This document shows positions 3,965 through 19,498 of a stretch of 64,000 nt of DNA, piece by piece. Position numbers and translations under genes: made by a program. The stretch spans positions 2,593 to 66,592 of the forward strand of contig CAZRXR010000003.1 in NCBI GenBank assembly GCA_964604125.1, written 5' to 3'. This DNA comes from an uncultured Synergistaceae bacterium. GTDB taxonomy: Bacteria; Synergistota; Synergistia; Synergistales; Dethiosulfovibrionaceae. Positions within the stretch are counted from its first letter, which is position 1; every line of letters starts with the position of its first letter. Below the pieces are notes generated by a model. That model was given only the letters and a program-made list of their open reading frames with translations, was not told where the DNA came from and did no database searches.

Positions 3965-4065
3965 TCAAGACCTCCGTGTCATAAGGCTTGTTGGTACACA
4001 CGCTTCCACCCGGTCTGAAGGCCGCTTCCGCCGTTCCGCGGGGAACGTTCGGAAGCGGCGCGGCG

Positions 4066-4113
4066 AAAGCAAAGACAAAGCGCCGCCGTTTCGGCAGACC
4101 GAAACGGCGGCGC
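4066..4113 (-). terminator. Rho-independent terminator after glpX
   Basis: 15-bp perfect stem GCGCCGCCGTTTCGG/CCGAAACGGCGGCGC followed by TTTGTCTTT on minus strand. Confidence 0.75.
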
Positions 4114-4136
4114 TCGGTTCTTCTGCTCTGCGCGGA

Positions 4137-5141
4137 TCAGGCCTTGTAGTGGATACCTGAAATCTGGTCGAGCTTATGAAGACTGTGCACGGCGTCGATG
4201 TAACGGACGGTGCCGCTCTTGGAGCGCATCACGAGCGAACTCGTGTAGATGTGCGCGCCTTCGTAACGGACGCCCTTGAGGAAGTCGCCGTCGGTGACGC
4301 CCGTCGCGGCGAAGAAGACGTCGTCGCTGCTGACGAGATCGTCGATCGTCAGAACTTTGTCGAAGTCCATGCCGGCCTCGATGCCCTTCTTGTACTGCTC
4401 CACGTCCTTGGCCCACAGCTTGCCCTGCATATCGCCGCCCGCCGACTTGATGGCGCAGGCGGTGATGACGGCTTCGGGCGTGCCGCCGATCCCCATCAGC
4501 ATGTCGGCGCCGCGCTCGTACTTGCTGGTAAGCAGCGCGCCGGCGATGTCGCCGTCCATGATCATCTTGATGCGGGCGCCGGCGGCGCGGATCTCGGAGA
4601 TGAGCTTTTCGTGGCGCGGGCGGTCAAGGACGACGACCAGCACATCGCCGACTTTCTTGTGGCGGGCGTCGGCGACGCGCTTGATGTTCTCCTCGACGGA
4701 GGCGTTGATGTCAACGACACCCTTGCAGTCGGGGCCGACGACAAGTTTGTTCATGTAGAACACGGTCTTGGGGTTGAACATGGTGCCTCGGGGAGCCACG
4801 GCCACGACGCTGATCGCGCCGCTGGCGCCGTAAGCCGTCAGCCGCGTGCCGTCGATAGGATCCACGGCGATATCGACGCTGACGCCGCCGGTGCCGAGAT
4901 GCTCGCCGTTGTAGAGCATGGGCGCTTCGTCCTTCTCGCCCTCGCCGATGACGACGACACCGTCCATGTCCACCGTGTTGAGCATGTAACGCATCGCGTT
5001 GACGGCGGCGCCGTCGGCGGCGTTTTTGTCCCCGCGGCCCATCAGACGGCCGGCGGCCATGGCGGCGGCTTCCGTGCCTCTGCAGAACTCAAGCGCCATG
5101 TTGCGATCGGGCAGAAGAACGTTGTTGAAGAGACTTTCCAT
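4137..5141 (-). CDS. glpX: Class II fructose-1,6-bisphosphatase
   Basis: Start at MESLFNN (SD GGGAGG); VVIGEGEKDEAPML, DPIDGT, DGDIAG, GGTPE motifs. Confidence 0.93.
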   Translation of the reverse strand: MESLFNNVLLPDRNMALEFCRGTEAAAMAAGRLMGRGDKNAADGAAVNAMRYMLNTVDMDGVVVIGEGEKDEAPMLYNGEHLGTGGVSVDIAVDPIDGTRLTAYGASGAISVVAVAPRGTMFNPKTVFYMNKLVVGPDCKGVVDINASVEENIKRVADARHKKVGDVLVVVLDRPRHEKLISEIRAAGARIKMIMDGDIAGALLTSKYERGADMLMGIGGTPEAVITACAIKSAGGDMQGKLWAKDVEQYKKGIEAGMDFDKVLTIDDLVSSDDVFFAATGVTDGDFLKGVRYEGAHIYTSSLVMRSKSGTVRYIDAVHSLHKLDQISGIHYKA

Positions 5142-12744: not shown

Positions 12745-14024
12745 TCGAAACTCTCGGCAAAGATCGTCTGGAACGCATGATCCGCCGCCGCCGCGACTTC
12801 CACCGCTTTCCCGAAAGCGGCTGGCACGAGTTCCGCGCCACATCTCTGATCGCGCGGGCGATGAGCGATCTCGGCTTTGAGGTGCGCCTGGCCGACGAAT
12901 TTTTAAAGCCCGAATACATCATGGGCAGAACGGTAGACGTGGCCGAGGAAAAAGCCCGCGCGCTCAGGCAGGGCGCCGACCCCGTCTGGCTTGACAGGAT
13001 AAAAGCCTTCACGGGACTCGCCGCGGAACTGAAAACGGGGCGCGAAGGGCCGGTCGTCGCTTTAAGGTTCGACATCGACTGCGTCGATACCACCGAGACG
13101 GACGACCCCGCGCACCCGCCCGCGACGATGAACTTCCGCTCGGAAAACCCGGGCTGGATGCACGCCTGCGGCCACGACGGGCACATGTCGCTGGGGCTGG
13201 CGGTCGCCGAATACGTCGCCGGGCACAGGGACTCTCTGCGCGGCGCGATCCGCTTTCTCTTTCAGCCCGCCGAGGAGGGTGTGCGCGGCGGGTACGCCAT
13301 GACGCGGGCGGGGCTTTTGGACGACGTGGATCGTTTCATCGCCGTTCATCTGGGACTTGGTATTCCGACGGGAACCGTATACGGGGGTACGCGCGGATTC
13401 CTCTGCACGACGAAGTTCGACGTGCGTTTCATCGGAAAGGGCGCCCACGCGGGCGGAGAACCAAACCTCGGCAGGAACGCCCTGCTCGCCGCCGCTTCGG
13501 CCGCCTTGAACCTTCACGCGATCGCGCCGCACCGCGACGGCCCGAGCCGGATCAACGTCGGCGTCCTCCGCGCGGGAGAGGGCCGGAACGTCGTCCCGCC
13601 CAACGCGGAGATGAAAGTTGAAACGCGCGGCGCCACCGAGGCGATCCTCGGCTACGTTTACGATCGCGCCGTTTCCGTCGTCAACGGGGCCGCCGCCATG
13701 TACGGGTGCGAAGTCGAGATCGCCAAGCGCGGCGAGTCGAACACGACAACCAGCGACGCCGAACTCAGCGAGCTGATCCGCGATGTCGCGCGCGACTGCC
13801 CGGGCGTCGAACACGCCGAGCTGAATCATCCGATGTCGGGCAGCGACGACGCCTGCTGGATGATGAAGCGTGTTCAGGAACGCGGCGGCAAGGCGACGTA
13901 CATCGGCCTCGGCGCGACGACGCGGGCCGGACACCACAACAGCTGTTTCGACTTCGACGAAAGGTGCCTGCCCATCGGGTATTACGTGATCTGCGGCGCG
14001 CTCGAGCGCCTTTCCGGCCGGTAG
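12741..14024 (+). CDS. M20 amidohydrolase, AbgA-like
   Basis: RRDFHRFPESGWHEF, RFDID, MHACGHDGH, FQPAEEGVRG, GSDD, GHH. Confidence 0.85.
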   Translation: MIETLGKDRLERMIRRRRDFHRFPESGWHEFRATSLIARAMSDLGFEVRLADEFLKPEYIMGRTVDVAEEKARALRQGADPVWLDRIKAFTGLAAELKTGREGPVVALRFDIDCVDTTETDDPAHPPATMNFRSENPGWMHACGHDGHMSLGLAVAEYVAGHRDSLRGAIRFLFQPAEEGVRGGYAMTRAGLLDDVDRFIAVHLGLGIPTGTVYGGTRGFLCTTKFDVRFIGKGAHAGGEPNLGRNALLAAASAALNLHAIAPHRDGPSRINVGVLRAGEGRNVVPPNAEMKVETRGATEAILGYVYDRAVSVVNGAAAMYGCEVEIAKRGESNTTTSDAELSELIRDVARDCPGVEHAELNHPMSGSDDACWMMKRVQERGGKATYIGLGATTRAGHHNSCFDFDERCLPIGYYVICGALERLSGR

Positions 14025-14058
14025 GATCGGCTCGCGCCCCGATTTTTGCGTGACATTT

Positions 14059-14093
14059 AAAAAGCCGCCCCCGGCGTTCGGGGGCGGCTTTTT
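14059..14093 (+). terminator. Rho-independent terminator
   Basis: AAAAGCCGCCCCCG/CGGGGGCGGCTTTT stem with T tail. Confidence 0.8.
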
Positions 14094-14378
14094 CGCGCGG
14101 CTCGCGGCGGCCGGGACGGGGGGCGCCTCGCGTACCGCCTTTTTGAGCCGGGCGCGGCACGTCTCCCCGCGAGACTGAAAATTTTCGACGAAAGCGGGGC
14201 GGAAAGCGCCCGCCGTGAACGCGCGACAAGCGCTTCCGGCGGCGCCCGGCGCGTTTCGCTCGCGCCGCCGCTTTGAAACGCCCTCGGCCGGGCCGTCCGG
14301 CCGCCTCGTCCGCGCGAGGTTTCCGCCCGCGAAAACGGTGAAACTGTGAAATGGAGAGTGTATACTTTGAGGTGAAAG

Positions 14379-14387
14379 TGCTATAAT
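14379..14387 (+). promoter_or_regulatory. Extended -10 promoter for ychJ operon
   Basis: TGCTATAAT; three GTGAAA copies just upstream. Confidence 0.5.
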
Positions 14388-14450
14388 CGTAGATGTTTCG
14401 CTTGATGCGCCAAGTTTGGTCAGTTCTGTCTCATCGAAAGGAGTTATCCC

Positions 14451-14942
14451 ATGCCACTTTCCCCCTCCGAATCCAATCAGGAGCTCGTGCTCGCGTGCAT
14501 GCCTATCCTCAAAGGCGAGCGCCGCGCCGCGACGGCCGTCGAGCTTATGAAGGCGCGCTACCTCGCCTACACGGTCGGCGACGTCGATTTTATCATCAAC
14601 AGCCACGACCCCGGGACGCGCGAAAACGTCAGCAAAGAGGCGACGGAGGAATGGTCGCGTTCGGCGCGCTGGCTGGGGCTGGACATCCGCGGCTGCGCCG
14701 GCGGCGGCGTAAACGACACGGAAGGCATCGTCGAGTTTGTCGCCAGTTTCGAGCTGGGCGGCAGGACGATCGCCCACCACGAGAAGTCCCTTTTCAGGAA
14801 GATCAACGGCGCGTGGTTTTTCGTCGATGGCCAGGTGATCCCCGAAACCTACGTCAGACCCGCGCCGAAGGTCGGGCGCAACGACCCCTGTCCCTGCGGC
14901 AGCGGCAAAAAGTACAAGTTCTGCTGCGGCAGGAACCGCTGA
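14451..14942 (+). CDS. YchJ family protein with C-terminal SEC-C motif
   Basis: [43 protein letters not shown]. Confidence 0.9.
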
Positions 14943-14950
14943 AGCCGCGA

Positions 14951-16468
14951 ATGCCTTTCAAGATCGGGTTCGACAACGAACGGTACCTCGGCGAGCAGAC
15001 CGCCGCGATCATGGAGCGCGTCCGGCGCAGCGGCGAGAAACTCTACCTTGAATTCGGCGGAAAACTGATCTTCGACCAACACGCGGCCCGCTGTCTCCCC
15101 GGCTTCGATCCCAACGTGAAGACGCGGCTTCTGCGGATGTTCCGCGATCGGGCGGAGGTGATAATCTGCCTCTACGCGGGCGACGTGGAGCGGAAGAAAA
15201 TACGGGCCGACTTCGGCACAACCTACGATTCCGAGGTTTTGCGCCTGCTGGACGAGTTTTCTTCGATGGGTCTGAAAGTTTCGGGCGTCGTCATCACGCG
15301 CTTTGAAGGACAGCCGGCGGTTCAGAATTTCCGCCGCCGTCTCGAAAACAGGGGCGTGCCCGTTTTTACGCACCGCGCCACGAAAGGGTACCCCGCCGAC
15401 GTTGACACGATCGTCAGCGAGGACGGGTACGGCCGCAACGACTATATCCCCACGTCGAAGCCCGTCGTCGTCGTCACGGCCCCCGGGCCGGGAAGCGGCA
15501 AGCTCGCCACCTGTCTGTCGCAGATCTATCACGACTTCCGCCGCGGTGTCCGCGCCGGTTACGCGAAGTACGAGAGTTTTCCCGTGTGGAACCTGCCGCT
15601 CTCCCACCCGCTCAACCGCGCCTACGAGGCGGCGACGGCCGATCTCGGCGATGTCAACCTGATTGACCATTTCCATCTCGAAGCCTACGACGAGAGAACC
15701 GTCAACTACAACCGCGACCTTGAAGCGTTCCCGATCCTCAGACGCATTCTCGAGCGCATCACCGGCTCCGACGCCGGGTACAGATCCCCCACCGACATGG
15801 GGGTCAACCGCATCGCCCTCGGCATCGTGGACGACGCCGTCGTTCGCGAGGCGTCGTGTCAGGAGGTCATCCGCCGCTATTTCAGGGTTTCGTGCGAGGC
15901 CGCTCTCGGACAGTGCGACGCGATCTGCGCCCAGAGGGTCGCGCTGATCATGAAGGAACTCGACCTCGTTCCCGAGCGCCGGCGCGTCGTCGTGCCCGCG
16001 CGCGAGGCCGTCAGCGAAGGGAGGGCGCGCGGCAAAGGCGACGGGGGCGTTTTCACCGGCGCCGCCATCGAGCTGCCGGACGGGACGATCGTCACGGGGA
16101 AGAACTCGCCGCTCCTCCATTCGGCGGCGAGCGTTGTGCTCAACGCCGCCAAAGTCCTCGCCGACATTCCCGACGCGATCGACCTTCTGCCGGCCAATAT
16201 CCTGCGCTCGCTCGCGCGCTTTAAAAAAGAAATCGTCGGCGAAAACAGGCTCGCGCTCACGCTGGAGGAGACACTGCTCGCTCTCAGCATCAGCGCCGCC
16301 TCGAATCCGGCCGCGGCCGCCGCGGTCGATCGCCTCATCGGCCTGCGCGGCTGCGAGTGTCACATGTCCCACATCGCCGCCCCCGGCGACGAGGGCGGTT
16401 TCAGAAAGCTCGGCGTCAACCTGACCTGCGATCCGTCTTTTTCCGGCAAAAGCCTTTTCGACGCCTGA
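14951..16468 (+). CDS. DUF1846 (UPF0371) family protein with P-loop
   Basis: True start MPFKIGFDNERY; KLYLEFGGKL, APGPGSGKLATCLS, SPTDMGVN. Confidence 0.85.
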   Translation: MPFKIGFDNERYLGEQTAAIMERVRRSGEKLYLEFGGKLIFDQHAARCLPGFDPNVKTRLLRMFRDRAEVIICLYAGDVERKKIRADFGTTYDSEVLRLLDEFSSMGLKVSGVVITRFEGQPAVQNFRRRLENRGVPVFTHRATKGYPADVDTIVSEDGYGRNDYIPTSKPVVVVTAPGPGSGKLATCLSQIYHDFRRGVRAGYAKYESFPVWNLPLSHPLNRAYEAATADLGDVNLIDHFHLEAYDERTVNYNRDLEAFPILRRILERITGSDAGYRSPTDMGVNRIALGIVDDAVVREASCQEVIRRYFRVSCEAALGQCDAICAQRVALIMKELDLVPERRRVVVPAREAVSEGRARGKGDGGVFTGAAIELPDGTIVTGKNSPLLHSAASVVLNAAKVLADIPDAIDLLPANILRSLARFKKEIVGENRLALTLEETLLALSISAASNPAAAAAVDRLIGLRGCECHMSHIAAPGDEGGFRKLGVNLTCDPSFSGKSLFDA

Positions 16469-16508
16469 TCCGCGATGGCTGTCGAGCGTGCCGAAGGAGT
16501 GAAAATAG

Positions 16509-17039
16509 GTGTGTAAAAGCGCGAAATGCCTGTTTTGCGCGTTATGCGCGGCGCTCGTCTTTTCGTCCGCCGCCGGCGGAGCGGAAACGGACGCCCGCGC
16601 GCCTTCTTCTTCCGCGTACGCGCCCCGCGCGGGAGACGCGCGTTCCCGCGTGTATGATTTCGAGGGCGTCGGCCGCAGGGACGGCGTTCTGGAGACGGGC
16701 TTTGAGCGCAAGACGCCCGAAACGCCCGATCTGGACGAGAAAGACGGCGACGGGATCGTGCTGTCACGGGGGATGCGGAAATTCGCCGAGGGCGCCGGCA
16801 AGGCCATCAAGAACATCAACGAGGCGGCGCTCAGCGTCGTAAGCAAGCCACTGGGACTTCTGGGGCTGGAGGCGGAAAGCGCCAAACTGCGGCCGGTTGA
16901 CGGCGGCGTCGGGTTGGGCGTGTCGATCAAACTGGACAAAAAGAAAAAGGACGCCGCGAAAAAGTCCGGCGAAGACGGCGACGACAGCCGCGAACTTTAC
17001 GACCTGCTCAGGCCCGACGACAGCCGGGGCCGTATGTGA
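16509..17039 (+). CDS. Hypothetical secreted protein
   Basis: GTG start with SD; signal-peptide-like N-terminus; genome-typical codon usage. Confidence 0.7.
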   Translation: MCKSAKCLFCALCAALVFSSAAGGAETDARAPSSSAYAPRAGDARSRVYDFEGVGRRDGVLETGFERKTPETPDLDEKDGDGIVLSRGMRKFAEGAGKAIKNINEAALSVVSKPLGLLGLEAESAKLRPVDGGVGLGVSIKLDKKKKDAAKKSGEDGDDSRELYDLLRPDDSRGRM

Positions 17040-17215
17040 ACGTGACAGGCTTTCCGACTGCCGCGCTGTTTTCCGTCTGCCTGTGCGCTTTGGCGAGTCT
17101 GTGCGCTTTGGCGAGTTTCCTCAGAGCGCTTGTTTTCGCGCGGTCGGGCCGATGGGGAAAGTCGGTTCTCTGGTTCGTGGCCGGGAGCGCGCTCCTCGCG
17201 GCGGCTTTTGTCTGA
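17036..17215 (+). CDS. Small two-helix membrane protein A (59 aa; not in ORF track)
   Basis: GTGA overlap with upstream stop; MNVTGFPTAALFSVCLCALASLCALASFLRALVFARSGRWGKSVLWFVAGSALLAAAFV. Confidence 0.65.
   Translation: MNVTGFPTAALFSVCLCALASLCALASFLRALVFARSGRWGKSVLWFVAGSALLAAAFV
17081..17116 (+). repeat. In-frame 18-bp tandem duplication (LCALAS x2)
   Basis: CTGTGCGCTTTGGCGAGT twice. Confidence 0.9.
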
Positions 17216-17295
17216 TCCCGCGCCCGCTTTCCGGGAACGTCCCGCGCCACGGAAAAAATTCGAAAGACATACTGAAACAAGGAGCCGTGATAACG

Positions 17296-17466
17296 ATGTC
17301 CGCCTCACAAATAGCGCCGTATGTGCTTTACGCCTGCGGTTTCGCGTTCTTCGGCCTCGGCGTCGCGTTCAAGCGCGCCGGGCGTCCCGGGAAAGCCTGC
17401 TTTGACTTTATCTGCGGGGCCTCTCTGCTGATCGTGGCCCACTACGTCGCTTCGGAACTTCATTGA
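17296..17466 (+). CDS. Small two-helix membrane protein B (56 aa)
   Basis: SD AAGGAG; MSASQIAPYVLYACGFAFFGLGVAFKRAGRPGKACFDFICGASLLIVAHYVASELH. Confidence 0.7.
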   Translation: MSASQIAPYVLYACGFAFFGLGVAFKRAGRPGKACFDFICGASLLIVAHYVASELH

Positions 17467-17473
17467 ACTCCGG

Positions 17474-17506
17474 GAGCGCGTCCGCAAGCCGGGCGCGCTC
17501 TTTTTT
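17474..17506 (+). terminator. Rho-independent terminator
   Basis: GAGCGCGTCCG/CGGGCGCGCTC stem plus T6. Confidence 0.75.
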
Positions 17507-17620
17507 GTTTAAAGGCGCGTATTTTTCCCTTGTGCTTTGAGAAAATTTGCTGTAGTATTCATTTTTTGAAAGAGCGTCGGTAAAAAAACATATTCAGTTC
17601 GTGCTGTAAGGAGACTCCGT

Positions 17621-19498
17621 ATGTATTCAGTTGACAAAATCAGGAATCTGGCGATCGTGGCTCACATCGATCACGGCAAGACGACGCTGATTGACTCGAT
17701 CTTCCGCGGCGCGCACACCTTCCGCGAGAACGCGCAGGTCGTCGAGCGCGTCATGGACAGCGGCGAACTCGAGCGCGAGCGCGGCATCACGATCACTTCC
17801 AAGCACTGCACCGTCGAATGGAAAGGGTATCTGATCAACATCATCGACACGCCGGGGCACGCCGACTTTTCGGGCGAGGTCGAGCGTGTGCTTTCGATGG
17901 TAGACAGCGTGCTTCTGCTCGTCGATGCCAACGAGGGGCCTATGCCGCAGACGCGCTATGTCCTGTCGCGGGCGCTGGCGATGGGGCTGCGGCCGATCGT
18001 GATCATCAACAAGGTGGACAGGCCGTCGGCCACGCCCTACGTGGCCTTGGAGAAGACGTTCGATCTGTTCATCGAGCTGGGAGCGACGGACGAGCAGGCG
18101 GACTTCCCCGTCCTCTACGGTTCGGGTCTGGCGGGATGGCTAGTCGCCGATCTCGACAGGGATCCGCGCGAGGGAATGGACGCGCTGTTCAAGACGATTA
18201 TCGACCGCGTCCCGCCCCCTCCCTCCAACTCCGACAAGCCGTTTTTGATGCAGGTCAGCACGCTGGCATGGAACGACTACGTGGGCCAGATAGGCTGCGG
18301 GCGCGTCGTGTCCGGCAGGCTCCGCGCGAACGATTATTTTATCCACAGTTCGACGCGCTGGAAAGACGAGAACAAGCGGGAAGACGGCTGGGAAACCGTT
18401 TCCGCGAACCGCGAAAAGGCGGCGCACCTGTGGGTCACGCGCGGGCTTGACCGCGTGGAAGTCGGCGAGGTGTTCGCCGGCGACATCGCCTGGCTTTCCG
18501 GCCCCAAGACGATTCGGATCGGCGACACGATGGCCTCGGAGGAACTTGGCGGCGAGACGCTGCCCCCGCTCGACATCGAGGAGCCGACGGTCTCCATGTT
18601 CTTCCTGGTCAACAACAGCCCGTTCGCGGGCCGCGACGGTACGCCGCTGACGCTGCGCCAGCTGAAATCGCGCCTCGATCGCGAGTGCCAGACGAACGTC
18701 GCGCTGCGCGTCGAGGACCTCGGCCGCCCCGACGGGCTGAAGGTCTCGGGCCGCGGCGAACTGCAGATGGCCATCCTCATCGAGCAGATGATCCGCGAAG
18801 GCTCCGAGCTGTGCGTCTCGCGCCCCGAAGTCATCACGAAGACCGACGAATCCGGCCACCTTCTCGAGCCGATGGAACAGCTGATCGTCGATGTTCCCGA
18901 GGCGTATCAGGGCGTCGTCATCGAAAAGCTGGCCGCCCGCAAGGCCGAGATGTCCGGCATGAACAACCTCTCCGCGGGCGTCGTGAGGATGGAGTTTGAC
19001 ATTCCCACGCGCGGCCTGCTGGGCTACCGCAACACGTTCCTGACCGACACGCGCGGGCTGGGCATCATGTCCTCGCGTTTTCGCGGGTACGACCTGTGGC
19101 GCGGCGAGGTGGTCAGCCGCAACCGCGGCTCGATGGTCAGCATGGACACGGGCGCCGCGACGAGCTACCAGCTGGAGAACCTTCAGGAGCGCGGCACGCT
19201 TTTCATCAGCCCGGGTACGGAAGTGTACGCTGGGCAGGTGGTCGGCGAACATTCGCGTCCCAACGACATTCCCTGCAACCCCACGAAGAAAAAGGCCATG
19301 ACGAACTACCGCTCCTCCACCAAGGAACTGGCGACGCACCTCGACGTGCCGCGCCCCGTCATTCTCGACAGGGCGATCGAGTGGATCGCCGACGACGAGC
19401 TTGTCGAGGCGACGCCCAAAGAGATCCGCATCCGCAAGGCCATCCTCGACATGACGGAGCGCAAAAAGGCCGAAAAACAGCTGAAGATGGAAAGCTGA
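17621..19498 (+). CDS. typA: Translational GTPase TypA/BipA
   Basis: [40 protein letters not shown]. Confidence 0.96.

What the first reader, a model, noticed from the sequence alone, without database searches (positions are those of the whole stretch)
16509..17506. Unannotated mini-operon: secreted protein plus two paralogous membrane microproteins
Two ORFs under 60 aa (17036-17215 and 17296-17466) each have helix-basic loop-helix topology and share a motif: FARSGRWGKSVLWFVAGSALL versus FKRAGRPGKACFDFICGASLL (F.R.GR.GK....F..G..LL). The first is translationally coupled (GTGA) to a 176-aa signal-peptide protein, the second has an AAGGAG SD, and a terminator closes the unit. Inference: a small hetero-oligomeric membrane module such as an envelope-stress effector, holin-like pair or immunity pair, belonging to no family I recognise.
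Basis: partly seen in the sequence, partly recalled or inferred. Interest (0 to 1): 0.62.

Follow-up and report, generated by a model that had tools for sequence, protein, structure and literature searches.

The report
Synergistales two-helix membrane microprotein, tandem-duplicated
A gut Pyramidobacter genome carries a conserved 56-residue two-helix membrane protein of an undescribed family found only in Synergistales, plus a fast-evolving tandem copy and an unrelated secreted neighbour; the genes are real, but their function is unknown and the find is fairly ordinary.

Summary
The two microproteins are true paralogues (BLASTP E=7e-7, reciprocal genome-scan hits).

- **orfB (17296-17466)** is the ancestral gene. 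It is a ~55-aa helical hairpin (AF2 pLDDT 86) with an invariant Cys in helix 1 and a basic R-x-G-x-P-x-K turn. It is single-copy in 68 of 268 Synergistota genomes (20 of 76 genera) and under strong purifying selection (dN/dS 0.05-0.3). Every orthologue has a strong Shine-Dalgarno site. In a Pyramidobacter relative it is covered by metatranscriptome contigs that also span the orfS 3' end.
- **orfA (17036-17215)** exists only in this genome and one sister species. It is a tandem duplicate born inside Pyramidobacter, it evolves about five times faster (dN/dS 0.41, p=0.009 for <1), and gene predictors did not call it.
- **orfS** belongs to a separate secreted-protein family. It occurs without orfB in three Pyramidobacter species, and orfB occurs without orfS in other genera.

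Pfam, NCBIfam, PHROGs, PADLOC, PDB sequences, Foldseek, phage records and plasmid records gave no match. The JGI label 'TM2 domain' fails its test.

The family is real and undescribed, but the proposed three-part hetero-oligomeric module is not supported. Function remains unknown.

The parts
14451..14942 (+). Context: ychJ-like gene (YchJ_M-like + SEC-C motif), probable first gene of the operon
   Evidence: Pfam E=1.9e-26 and 3.8e-9. The same gene precedes the locus in other Pyramidobacter and in genus g3.
14960..16468 (+). Context: DUF1846 (UPF0371) gene; it ends 40 nt before orfS
   Evidence: Pfam PF08903 E=1.4e-158 and PF20921 E=1.1e-48. In relative L005, RNA contig X6 record 11 bridges the DUF1846-orfS junction.
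16493..16499 (+). Shine-Dalgarno site GAAGGAG of orfS, 9 nt before the GTG start
16509..17039 (+). orfS: 176-aa secreted protein (inferred Sec signal peptide). Conserved core F-x-G-x-G ... TGF ... long helix plus beta-hairpin.
   Evidence: ORF. Seven-orthologue alignment with 27 invariant columns. 17 clusters in the homologue search, with a Pyramidobacter piscolens or Pyramidobacter sp. 'hypothetical protein' name wherever a source gives one. dN/dS 0.15-0.48. AF2 pLDDT 61, with helix 87-117 and strands 121-141 at about 82. No Pfam, NCBIfam, PHROG, PADLOC or Foldseek match.
17036..17215 (+). orfA: 59-aa two-helix membrane paralogue of orfB. Its start overlaps the orfS stop (GTGA).
   Evidence: Present only in G000 and G003. 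The GTGA overlap is kept in G003. dN/dS 0.41, Fisher p=0.009 for <1. One synonymous SNP among three strains. Not called in the public protein collection.
17081..17116 (+). In-frame 18-bp tandem duplication (CTGTGCGCTTTGGCGAGT twice, giving LCALAS twice) that lengthens helix 1 of orfA by six residues
   Evidence: Absent from G003. Present in all three faecal-metagenome strains (no indels).
17255..17295 (+). Conserved 5' leader of orfB, containing AAGGAG at 17279-17284
   Evidence: About 90% identical to G003, while the spacer just after the orfA stop is about 45% identical. Every orthologue has a Shine-Dalgarno site.
17296..17466 (+). orfB: 56-aa helical-hairpin membrane protein, the ancestral member of a Synergistales-restricted family
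   Evidence: dN/dS 0.075 against G003. No SNP in three strains. AF2 pLDDT 86. Metatranscriptome contigs cover the orthologue.
17472..17512 (+). Intrinsic terminator that closes the unit
   Evidence: 13-pair stem, 9 of them G-C, then TTTTTGTTT. Hairpin plus T run is also seen after orfB in other Pyramidobacter. RNA contigs in the relative stop just after orfB.
17566..19498 (+). Context: promoter-like site (17566-17594) and typA/bipA (17621-19498), a separate unit
   Evidence: BipA domains on the equivalent gene of L059.

Best explanation
SHOWN: orfB belongs to a previously undescribed family of 50-59-aa proteins found only in Synergistota (order Synergistales). The model is a helical hairpin. 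Helix 1 carries an invariant Cys and a near-invariant Ala-Pro start. The turn is strongly basic (R-[AS]-G-[RQH]-P-x-[KR]). Both helices are rich in small residues.

INFERRED (positive-inside rule): the turn faces the cytoplasm and both short ends face the periplasm.

SHOWN: orfB has its own strong Shine-Dalgarno site. In a Pyramidobacter relative, RNA contigs join orfS to orfB and DUF1846 to orfS, and a terminator follows orfB.

INFERRED: orfB is the last cistron of a ychJ-DUF1846-orfS-(orfA)-orfB transcript.

SHOWN: orfA is a tandem duplicate of orfB. It arose inside Pyramidobacter before G000 and G003 split. It has diverged about five times faster, yet it keeps an open frame, the hairpin, the RSGRxGK turn and the four-base overlap with the orfS stop.

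SHOWN: orfS is a secreted protein of an independent family. It neighbours orfB only in part of one genus.

INFERRED, weakly: the family acts as a small self-associating inner-membrane subunit, or as an accessory to a housekeeping envelope or membrane complex. It is not a toxin, holin or immunity factor. Where orfA exists it may mix with orfB in the same oligomer.
For: Family membership and distribution:
- The profile finds one copy in 68 of 268 Synergistota genomes, in families f1, f3 and f6 only.
- Only 26 cluster representatives turn up among 1.84 billion proteins. The long ones match through repeated TPR-like stretches.
- Names attached to members are Synergistales or hypothetical.

Selection:
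- orfB dN/dS is 0.05-0.32 over 18 species pairs with measurable dS; Fisher p=9e-11.
- No variant in orfB among three strains, against eight in orfS.

Expression:
- AAGGAG or GGAGG lies 5-11 nt upstream in all 19 loci examined.
- Metatranscriptome contigs X5 record 4 (L005 1245-1721) and X7 record 18 (1455-1679) join the orfS 3' end to the whole of orfB and end just after it. X6 record 11 bridges DUF1846 to orfS.

Fold: AF2 pLDDT 86, helices 3-28 and 31-55. Basic residues cluster in the turn.

orfA as a recent duplicate:
- Found only in G000 and G003.
- The two orfA copies form a 100/100 clade nested inside the Pyramidobacter orfB clade.
- dN/dS 0.41, p=0.009.
- Coding parts are more conserved than the adjacent spacer.

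orfS is separable from orfB:
- G002, G010 and G011 have orfS followed directly by typA.
- In genus g4 the two genes are on different contigs.
- orfB's neighbours differ by genus.

Against a mobile, toxin or defence role: no hits in PHROGs, PADLOC, phage or plasmid records, and the neighbours are housekeeping genes.
Against: There is no direct protein-level evidence for any of the three products, and no RNA data for this genome itself.

The RNA evidence comes from low-depth contigs (3-6x) of mixed-culture metatranscriptomes of a relative. DNA carry-over cannot be excluded.

Membrane insertion and topology are predictions.

The functional part (oligomerising accessory subunit) rests only on size, small-residue helices and the lack of any better clue. 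Gene neighbourhoods give no consistent partner.

orfA has no Shine-Dalgarno site of its own, was not called by gene finders, and an open 59-codon frame is not rare in 63% G+C DNA. Its translation is therefore less sure than that of orfB.
Confidence: 0.62

Rival explanations
1. orfS, orfA and orfB form one dedicated hetero-oligomeric envelope module: a periplasmic protein docked on an A/B membrane pair, for example an envelope-stress effector.
For: The genes are tightly packed. GTGA coupling joins orfS to orfA. In species without orfA, 10-25 nt separate orfS from orfB. orfS and orfB are co-transcribed in a relative. In several other lineages orfB also sits beside a secreted or envelope-related gene: a PpiC/SurA-like PPIase in five genera, secD-secF in one genome, and an S9-like secreted peptidase.
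Against: Three Pyramidobacter species keep orfS without any orfB in the genome. Genus g4 has both genes at unlinked loci. Most carriers of orfB have no orfS nearby. The A/B pair exists in only 2 of 68 carrier genomes. orfS evolves fast (dN/dS 0.2-0.45) and orfB slowly.
Confidence: 0.12
2. Only orfB is functional. orfA is an untranslated, slowly decaying remnant of the duplication whose frame happens to stay open in G+C-rich DNA.
For: orfA has no Shine-Dalgarno site of its own. It is absent from the public protein collection. Its dN/dS is five times that of orfB. It has lost family hallmarks: Ala-Pro at the start, Pro in the turn (now Trp), and Asp in helix 2. It carries an 18-bp slippage duplication.
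Against: dN/dS 0.41 is below 1 (p=0.009). The only length change is in frame. The GTGA start-stop overlap, the Cys and the RSGRxGK turn are kept in both species. The orfA core is about 90% identical at DNA level, while the spacer right behind it is about 45%. The only strain variant is synonymous.
Confidence: 0.2
3. The small proteins are membrane-damaging or membrane-protecting factors: a holin-like pair, a type I toxin, or a bacteriocin-immunity pair.
For: Size and the two-helix hydrophobic shape resemble class II holins and small toxins. The N-terminus gives a weak match to the S. aureus toxin PepA1 (E=0.055). Foldseek top hits include pore-forming toxin hairpins, but at E>1.
Against: No PHROG, PADLOC, phage or plasmid match. 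There is no lysis, bacteriocin or prophage gene nearby. The gene is vertically inherited, single-copy, strongly conserved and sits among housekeeping genes across three families. It has a strong Shine-Dalgarno site and operon position, not the antisense-RNA layout of type I toxins.
Confidence: 0.04
4. The family is a diverged TM2-domain (YozV-like) protein, as JGI names two of its members.
For: JGI names P0006 and P0013 'TM2 domain-containing membrane protein YozV'. One of 15 members hits PF05154 at E=0.045. Both are roughly 50-aa two-helix units.
Against: 14 of 15 members give no TM2 hit even at E<=10. The TM2 model finds nothing in the whole G000 genome, while it matches 9 of 14 control genomes.
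Confidence: 0.03

Closest known systems
TM2 domain proteins (Pfam PF05154, e.g. B. subtilis YozV; COG2314)
   Same: A unit of about 50 aa with two transmembrane helices and a short turn. One database (JGI) gives this name to two family members.
   Different: The HMM does not recognise the family: 1 of 15 members at E=0.045, far below the 27.9-bit cut-off, and nothing in the G000 genome. The family's hallmarks (Cys in helix 1, R-x-G-x-P-x-K turn) were not picked up by the TM2 model.
Small accessory inner-membrane proteins of bacteria (AcrZ, KdpF, CydX, MgtS; own knowledge)
   Same: Under 60 aa, hydrophobic, chromosomal, often the last or an extra cistron of a housekeeping operon, and missed or left unnamed by annotation. 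This is what orfB most plausibly works like (inference).
   Different: Most of those have a single helix and a fixed partner gene next to them. orfB has two helices and no constant neighbour. There is no sequence relation.
Pmp3/YqaE proteolipids (Pfam PF01679)
   Same: Hairpin membrane proteins of about 52-57 aa with two helices, stand-alone genes.
   Different: No Pfam hit even at E<=10 for any of 15 members. Pmp3 is spread across bacteria and eukaryotes, while this family is confined to one order.
Class II holins and type I toxins such as PepA1
   Same: Small hydrophobic peptides, with two helices in class II holins. The match to PepA1 is weak and non-significant (E=0.055).
   Different: There is no phage or lysis context, and no PHROG, phage or plasmid homologue. 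The gene is conserved and vertically inherited under purifying selection.
F-type ATPase c subunit hairpin (own knowledge)
   Same: A helical hairpin with small-residue packing in helix 1 and a cytoplasmic basic turn containing R-x-P.
   Different: It is about 20 aa too short. No ATP-synt_C hit appeared in the Pfam scan. The helix 2 acidic residue is not conserved: Asp in f1 and f3, but Arg, Asn or Ile in f6. It is never found in an atp operon.

Membership tests
TM2 domain (PF05154) | Match to the TM2 profile at or above the curated cut-off (27.9 bits) | tested here: not met
   hmmscan of 15 members gave one hit at E=0.045 and none for orfA or orfB. A six-frame scan of G000 with PF05154 gave no match at E<=10, while 9 of 14 control genomes matched.
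Holin (class II) / phage lysis module | Homology to a phage holin family | tested here: not met
   PHROGs gave no hit below E=0.08 for six proteins. tblastn against 50,697 phage records gave no match.
Holin (class II) / phage lysis module | Location next to an endolysin or other lysis genes, or in a prophage | tested here: not met
   Neighbours are ychJ, DUF1846, typA and gpsA here, and nrdDG, a PPIase, secDF, pyrD-like or panCD elsewhere.
Type I toxin-antitoxin | Small hydrophobic toxin whose translation is held down by an overlapping or adjacent antisense RNA; toxic on overexpression | not tested
   No RNA data for this genome. The layout argues against it: strong Shine-Dalgarno site, last cistron of a sense operon, single conserved copy. 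Antisense transcription and toxicity were not examined. The PepA1 similarity is not significant.
Anti-phage defence or immunity proteins (PADLOC) | Match to a PADLOC model | tested here: not met
   No family at E<=1 for orfS, orfA or orfB.
Pmp3/YqaE (PF01679) | Match to the Pfam profile | tested here: not met
   Not among the 19 families listed at E<=10 for 15 members.
New Synergistales hairpin family (defined here by profile A2) | 50-59 aa; two hydrophobic helices; Cys in helix 1; R-x-G basic turn; significant profile match | tested here: met
   orfB scores E=5.3e-24. orfA scores E=3.3e-13, but orfA is part of that profile, so the independent support is. Invariant C14 and G29 and near-invariant R27 and L11 are shown.
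SprA-related family (PF12118), considered for orfS | Match to PF12118, as shown by the gene upstream of orfB in genus g2 | tested here: not met
   The g2 upstream protein hits PF12118 at E=1.3e-33. orfS and its Pyramidobacter orthologues have no Pfam hit. The only orfS-like match in g2 lies on another contig.

The most novel reading that the evidence does not exclude
orfA and orfB form a hetero-oligomeric inner-membrane platform that docks or senses the secreted orfS protein. More generally, the orfB family would be a Synergistales-specific membrane partner for periplasmic folding and secretion factors. That would explain why it sits beside a SurA-like PPIase in five genera, after secD-secF in one genome, and beside secreted proteins in others. 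It would then be an undescribed component of envelope biogenesis in this atypical diderm phylum.
Probability: 0.1. Interest if true: 0.55.

Novelty: new variant of a known kind. Interest (0 to 1): 0.3.

Why it matters
Synergistota are poorly studied diderm bacteria of the gut and mouth, and almost nothing is known about their small proteins.

This work defines a conserved, order-restricted membrane microprotein family with a profile, a confident hairpin model, selection data and some RNA evidence. It also shows a clean case of tandem duplication with asymmetric divergence, in which the new copy escaped gene calling.

That is useful for annotation and for small-protein catalogues. No function, partner or phenotype follows from the data, and lineage-restricted hydrophobic microprotein families of unknown role are common. 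The finding is solid but modest.

Tried and rejected
- **Family libraries.** Pfam, NCBIfam, PHROGs and PADLOC scans of the three proteins and of 15 family members gave nothing significant. Scattered hits to TPR_2, T4SS_pilin, DUF7533 and TM2 at E=0.005-0.05 are composition or hairpin noise.
- **Solved structures by sequence.** The profile against PDB sequences gave only FANCG/TPR and PepA1 at E>=0.02.
- **Fold search.** Foldseek of both AF2 models against the PDB gave nothing below E=1.5. The hits are generic helical hairpins such as ferritins.
- **orfS model.** Most of it is low-confidence (pLDDT 61), so its fold search carries little weight.
- **Whole-library HMM search.** No relatives outside the family were found. 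The long hits are repeated TPR-like stretches.
- **RNA for this genome.** No RNA run holds it, so RNA from a relative was used instead.
- **A constant neighbour of orfB.** 52 loci were examined and none is universal.
- **orfS as a diverged SprA-related protein.** Rejected.
- **orfA acquired from another lineage.** The tree groups it weakly (93/55) with P0018 and P0010, but the P0010 locus has a single copy in the usual place. The grouping is best read as a long-branch effect.
- **Alternative orfB start at GTG 17287.** It is in frame but only 2 nt after the Shine-Dalgarno site. The ATG at 17296 matches the N-termini of the orthologues.
Full report
**1. The observation**

The window is contig C3 of a 1.8-Mb, 96%-complete genome.

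The + strand carries three ORFs:
- orfS, 16509-17039, 176 aa
- orfA, 17036-17215, 59 aa
- orfB, 17296-17466, 56 aa

- The orfA GTG overlaps the orfS stop as GTGA.
- GAAGGAG precedes orfS, and AAGGAG (17279-17284) precedes orfB.
- A 13-pair G+C-rich hairpin with a T run follows orfB at 17472-17502.
- Upstream lie a ychJ-like gene and DUF1846. Downstream, behind a promoter-like site, lies typA/bipA.

The two quoted motif strings are exact, and the similarity between orfA and orfB is not chance:
- BLASTP gives E=7e-7.
- orfB alone finds both orfA copies in six-frame genome scans.
- orfA alone finds the orfB orthologues of five other species.

**2. orfB is the ancestral, conserved gene**

orfB has open-frame orthologues of 50-59 aa in most Pyramidobacter genomes, in three other genera of the same family, and in two further families of the order. 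A profile of 15 members finds exactly one copy in 68 of 268 genomes of the phylum. That covers 20 of 76 genera, all in families f1, f3 and f6.

An exhaustive HMM search of 1.84 billion cluster representatives returns only 26 proteins. The short ones are obvious family members. The few long ones match through repeated TPR-like stretches. Where a source gives a name it is 'hypothetical protein [Synergistales bacterium]'.

The conserved features are:
- an Ala-Pro near the start
- an invariant Cys in helix 1
- a basic turn R-[AS]-G-[RQH]-P-x-[KR]
- many small residues in both helices

AlphaFold2 on the alignment gives a hairpin with helix 3-28 and helix 31-55, mean pLDDT 86. Nearly all Lys and Arg residues sit in the turn. 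By the positive-inside rule the turn should be cytoplasmic and both ends periplasmic; this is inference.

**3. Evidence that orfB is a real gene**

- Pairwise dN/dS within Pyramidobacter is 0.05-0.32, and 0.075 against the sister species G003 at dS of about 1.2. A Fisher test for dN/dS below 1 gives p=9e-11.
- Three faecal-metagenome strains of this species carry 13 variants in the 1.3-kb stretch and none in orfB.
- All 19 loci examined have AAGGAG or GGAGG 5-11 nt before the start. Pyramidobacter loci also have a hairpin plus T run after the stop.
- No RNA run holds this genome. For relative G004 (locus L005), metatranscriptome contigs X5 record 4 (1245-1721) and X7 record 18 (1455-1679) join the 3' end of orfS to the whole of orfB and end shortly after it. 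X6 record 11 bridges DUF1846 and orfS.

These contigs are low-depth and DNA carry-over cannot be excluded. Their ends nevertheless fit an operon ychJ-DUF1846-orfS-orfB that is closed by the terminator. The 40-nt gap between DUF1846 and orfS in the window fits the same picture. The 'mini-operon' is therefore probably the tail of a longer one.

**4. orfA is a young tandem duplicate**

orfA occurs only in G000 and G003. In a maximum-likelihood tree the two orfA copies form a 100/100 clade on a long branch nested inside the Pyramidobacter orfB clade. The duplication therefore happened within the genus, before the two species split.

A weak grouping of orfA with the metagenomic proteins P0018 and P0010 is most likely a long-branch effect. 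The P0010 locus has the ordinary single-copy layout ychJ-orfS-small-bipA.

orfA has lost several family hallmarks: the Ala-Pro, the Pro of the turn (now Trp), and the Asp of helix 2. It evolves faster, with dN/dS 0.41. That value is still below 1 (p=0.009).

Other signs of constraint on orfA:
- The GTGA overlap with the orfS stop is kept in G003.
- The only length difference is an in-frame 18-bp tandem duplication (17081-17116, LCALAS twice). It is fixed in all three strains.
- The orfA core is about 90% identical at DNA level, while the spacer right after its stop is about 45% identical.

On the other side, orfA is absent from a 15-billion-protein collection with three candidate starts, whereas orfS and orfB are present. 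I read orfA as probably translated by coupling to orfS. The pseudogene alternative keeps about 0.2.

**5. orfS is an independent family**

The Pyramidobacter orthologues are 176-216 aa. They share a hydrophobic N-terminus with AxA-like sites (an inferred Sec signal peptide), an F-x-G-x-G...TGF motif and a conserved core. AF2 models only that core with confidence, as a long helix (87-117) plus a beta-hairpin (121-141).

A profile finds orfS in 10 of 12 Pyramidobacter genomes, in genus g4, and weakly at unrelated loci in other families. Three observations bear directly on the proposed module:
- G002, G010 and G011 have orfS followed directly by typA, with no small gene at the locus or anywhere in the genome.
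- In genus g4 the two genes are on different contigs.
- orfS has no match in Pfam, NCBIfam, PHROGs, PADLOC or Foldseek.

**6. Neighbourhoods of orfB**

| Lineage | Genes next to orfB |
|---|---|
| Pyramidobacter (g1) | orfS upstream, typA downstream |
| g2 | follows a SprA-related protein (PF12118, E=1.3e-33), precedes nrdD-nrdG |
| g3, g4 | precedes nrdD-nrdG |
| f3: g24, g25, g29, g31, g40 | 120-325 nt (or one gene, proS) upstream of a secreted PpiC-type PPIase with a SurA-like N-domain; often divergent from a response regulator and kinase pair |
| f3: g27, g32, g35, g37, g39 | beside a ~650-aa secreted S9-like peptidase or an M20 peptidase; in one genome directly after secD-secF |
| f6 | between an M20 peptidase and pyrD-like, panD, panC |

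No neighbour is universal. Envelope or secreted proteins recur, which is suggestive but does not establish a link.

**7. What it is not**

- TM2 domain, the JGI name for two members: 14 of 15 members give no hit even at E<=10. The TM2 model finds nothing in the genome, although it matches 9 of 14 control genomes.
- Holin, toxin, immunity or defence factor: no match in PHROGs, PADLOC, phage or plasmid records, and no lysis or prophage context. The PepA1 similarity is non-significant.
- Pmp3, or an ATPase c subunit: no profile hit, and the helix 2 acidic residue is not conserved.
- Foldseek returns only generic hairpins.

**8. Most likely mechanism**

Shown: orfB belongs to a conserved, order-restricted two-helix hydrophobic microprotein family with its own ribosome-binding site, and an RNA contig of a relative joins its orthologue to orfS.

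Inferred: it inserts into the inner membrane with the basic turn facing the cytoplasm. The small-residue helix faces and the invariant Cys point to helix-helix packing. That would mean self-association, or docking onto a larger membrane complex in the manner of known small accessory membrane proteins. The vertically inherited, single-copy, housekeeping context points the same way and away from toxins or mobile functions.

Where orfA exists it may co-assemble with orfB. Its lengthened helix 1 and altered turn would then change the properties of the oligomer. This last step is speculation.

I give 0.62 to the whole statement: about 0.85-0.9 for the structural and evolutionary part, and about 0.3 for the functional part.

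**9. Novelty and score**

The family is not in Pfam, NCBIfam or the PDB, and I found no paper on it. As a family it is undescribed. As a kind it is a familiar one: a lineage-restricted small membrane protein of unknown function with a recent paralogue.

The reading as a dedicated three-part hetero-oligomeric module is not supported by the distribution data. Interest is 0.3.

Noticed in passing
window 17081-17116: Perfect in-frame 18-bp tandem duplication inside orfA (LCALAS twice). It is absent from sister species G003 and fixed in three metagenome strains. It lengthens helix 1 by six residues.
   Followed up: yes
L021, L024, L025, L028, L031, L032, L052-L055 (about 120-325 nt after the small gene); L022, L023, L056 (one gene further): In five genera of family f3, the orfB orthologue lies immediately upstream of a secreted PpiC-type peptidyl-prolyl isomerase with a SurA-like N-domain. 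It is often divergent from a response regulator and histidine kinase pair. This is the most persistent neighbour found.
   Followed up: partly
L049 (G172:C123), small gene at 3998-4147 of the oriented locus: Here the orfB orthologue starts 22 nt after secF, giving the order secD-secF-small gene. The sister genome L050 instead has it beside a ~650-aa secreted S9-like peptidase.
   Followed up: no
L008-L011, L013-L016, L034 (genus g2): The gene upstream of orfB in g2 is a SprA-related protein (PF12118, with an HExxH-like 'AHEAAH' motif). It comes in a full 281-288-aa form and a 193-195-aa form that lacks the second half with that motif.
   Followed up: partly
window 17255-17295: The orfB leader is about 90% identical between G000 and G003, while the 35 nt before it are about 45% identical. 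It may hold an internal promoter or a regulatory RNA element besides the Shine-Dalgarno site.
   Followed up: no
profile A2 against large libraries: The hairpin profile cross-matches TPR repeats (TPR_2, FANCG, CDC27, and long multi-repeat proteins). The pattern 'A..F.LG.A..R.G....A' mimics the TPR consensus. This is a trap for automated naming of the family.
   Followed up: yes
window 13062-16939, minus strand: Very long shadow ORFs (572 and 696 aa) run antisense to the ychJ, DUF1846 and orfS genes. They are typical of 63% G+C DNA and are not genes. The same effect produced false 'longest ORF' picks in several relatives' loci.
   Followed up: partly
L029, L036, L051 (genera g3, g2, g4): In the other genera of the family, orfB precedes the anaerobic ribonucleotide reductase genes nrdD-nrdG. 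Genus g3 also keeps ychJ-DUF1846 on the left. The Pyramidobacter arrangement (orfS on the left, typA on the right) therefore looks derived.
   Followed up: partly
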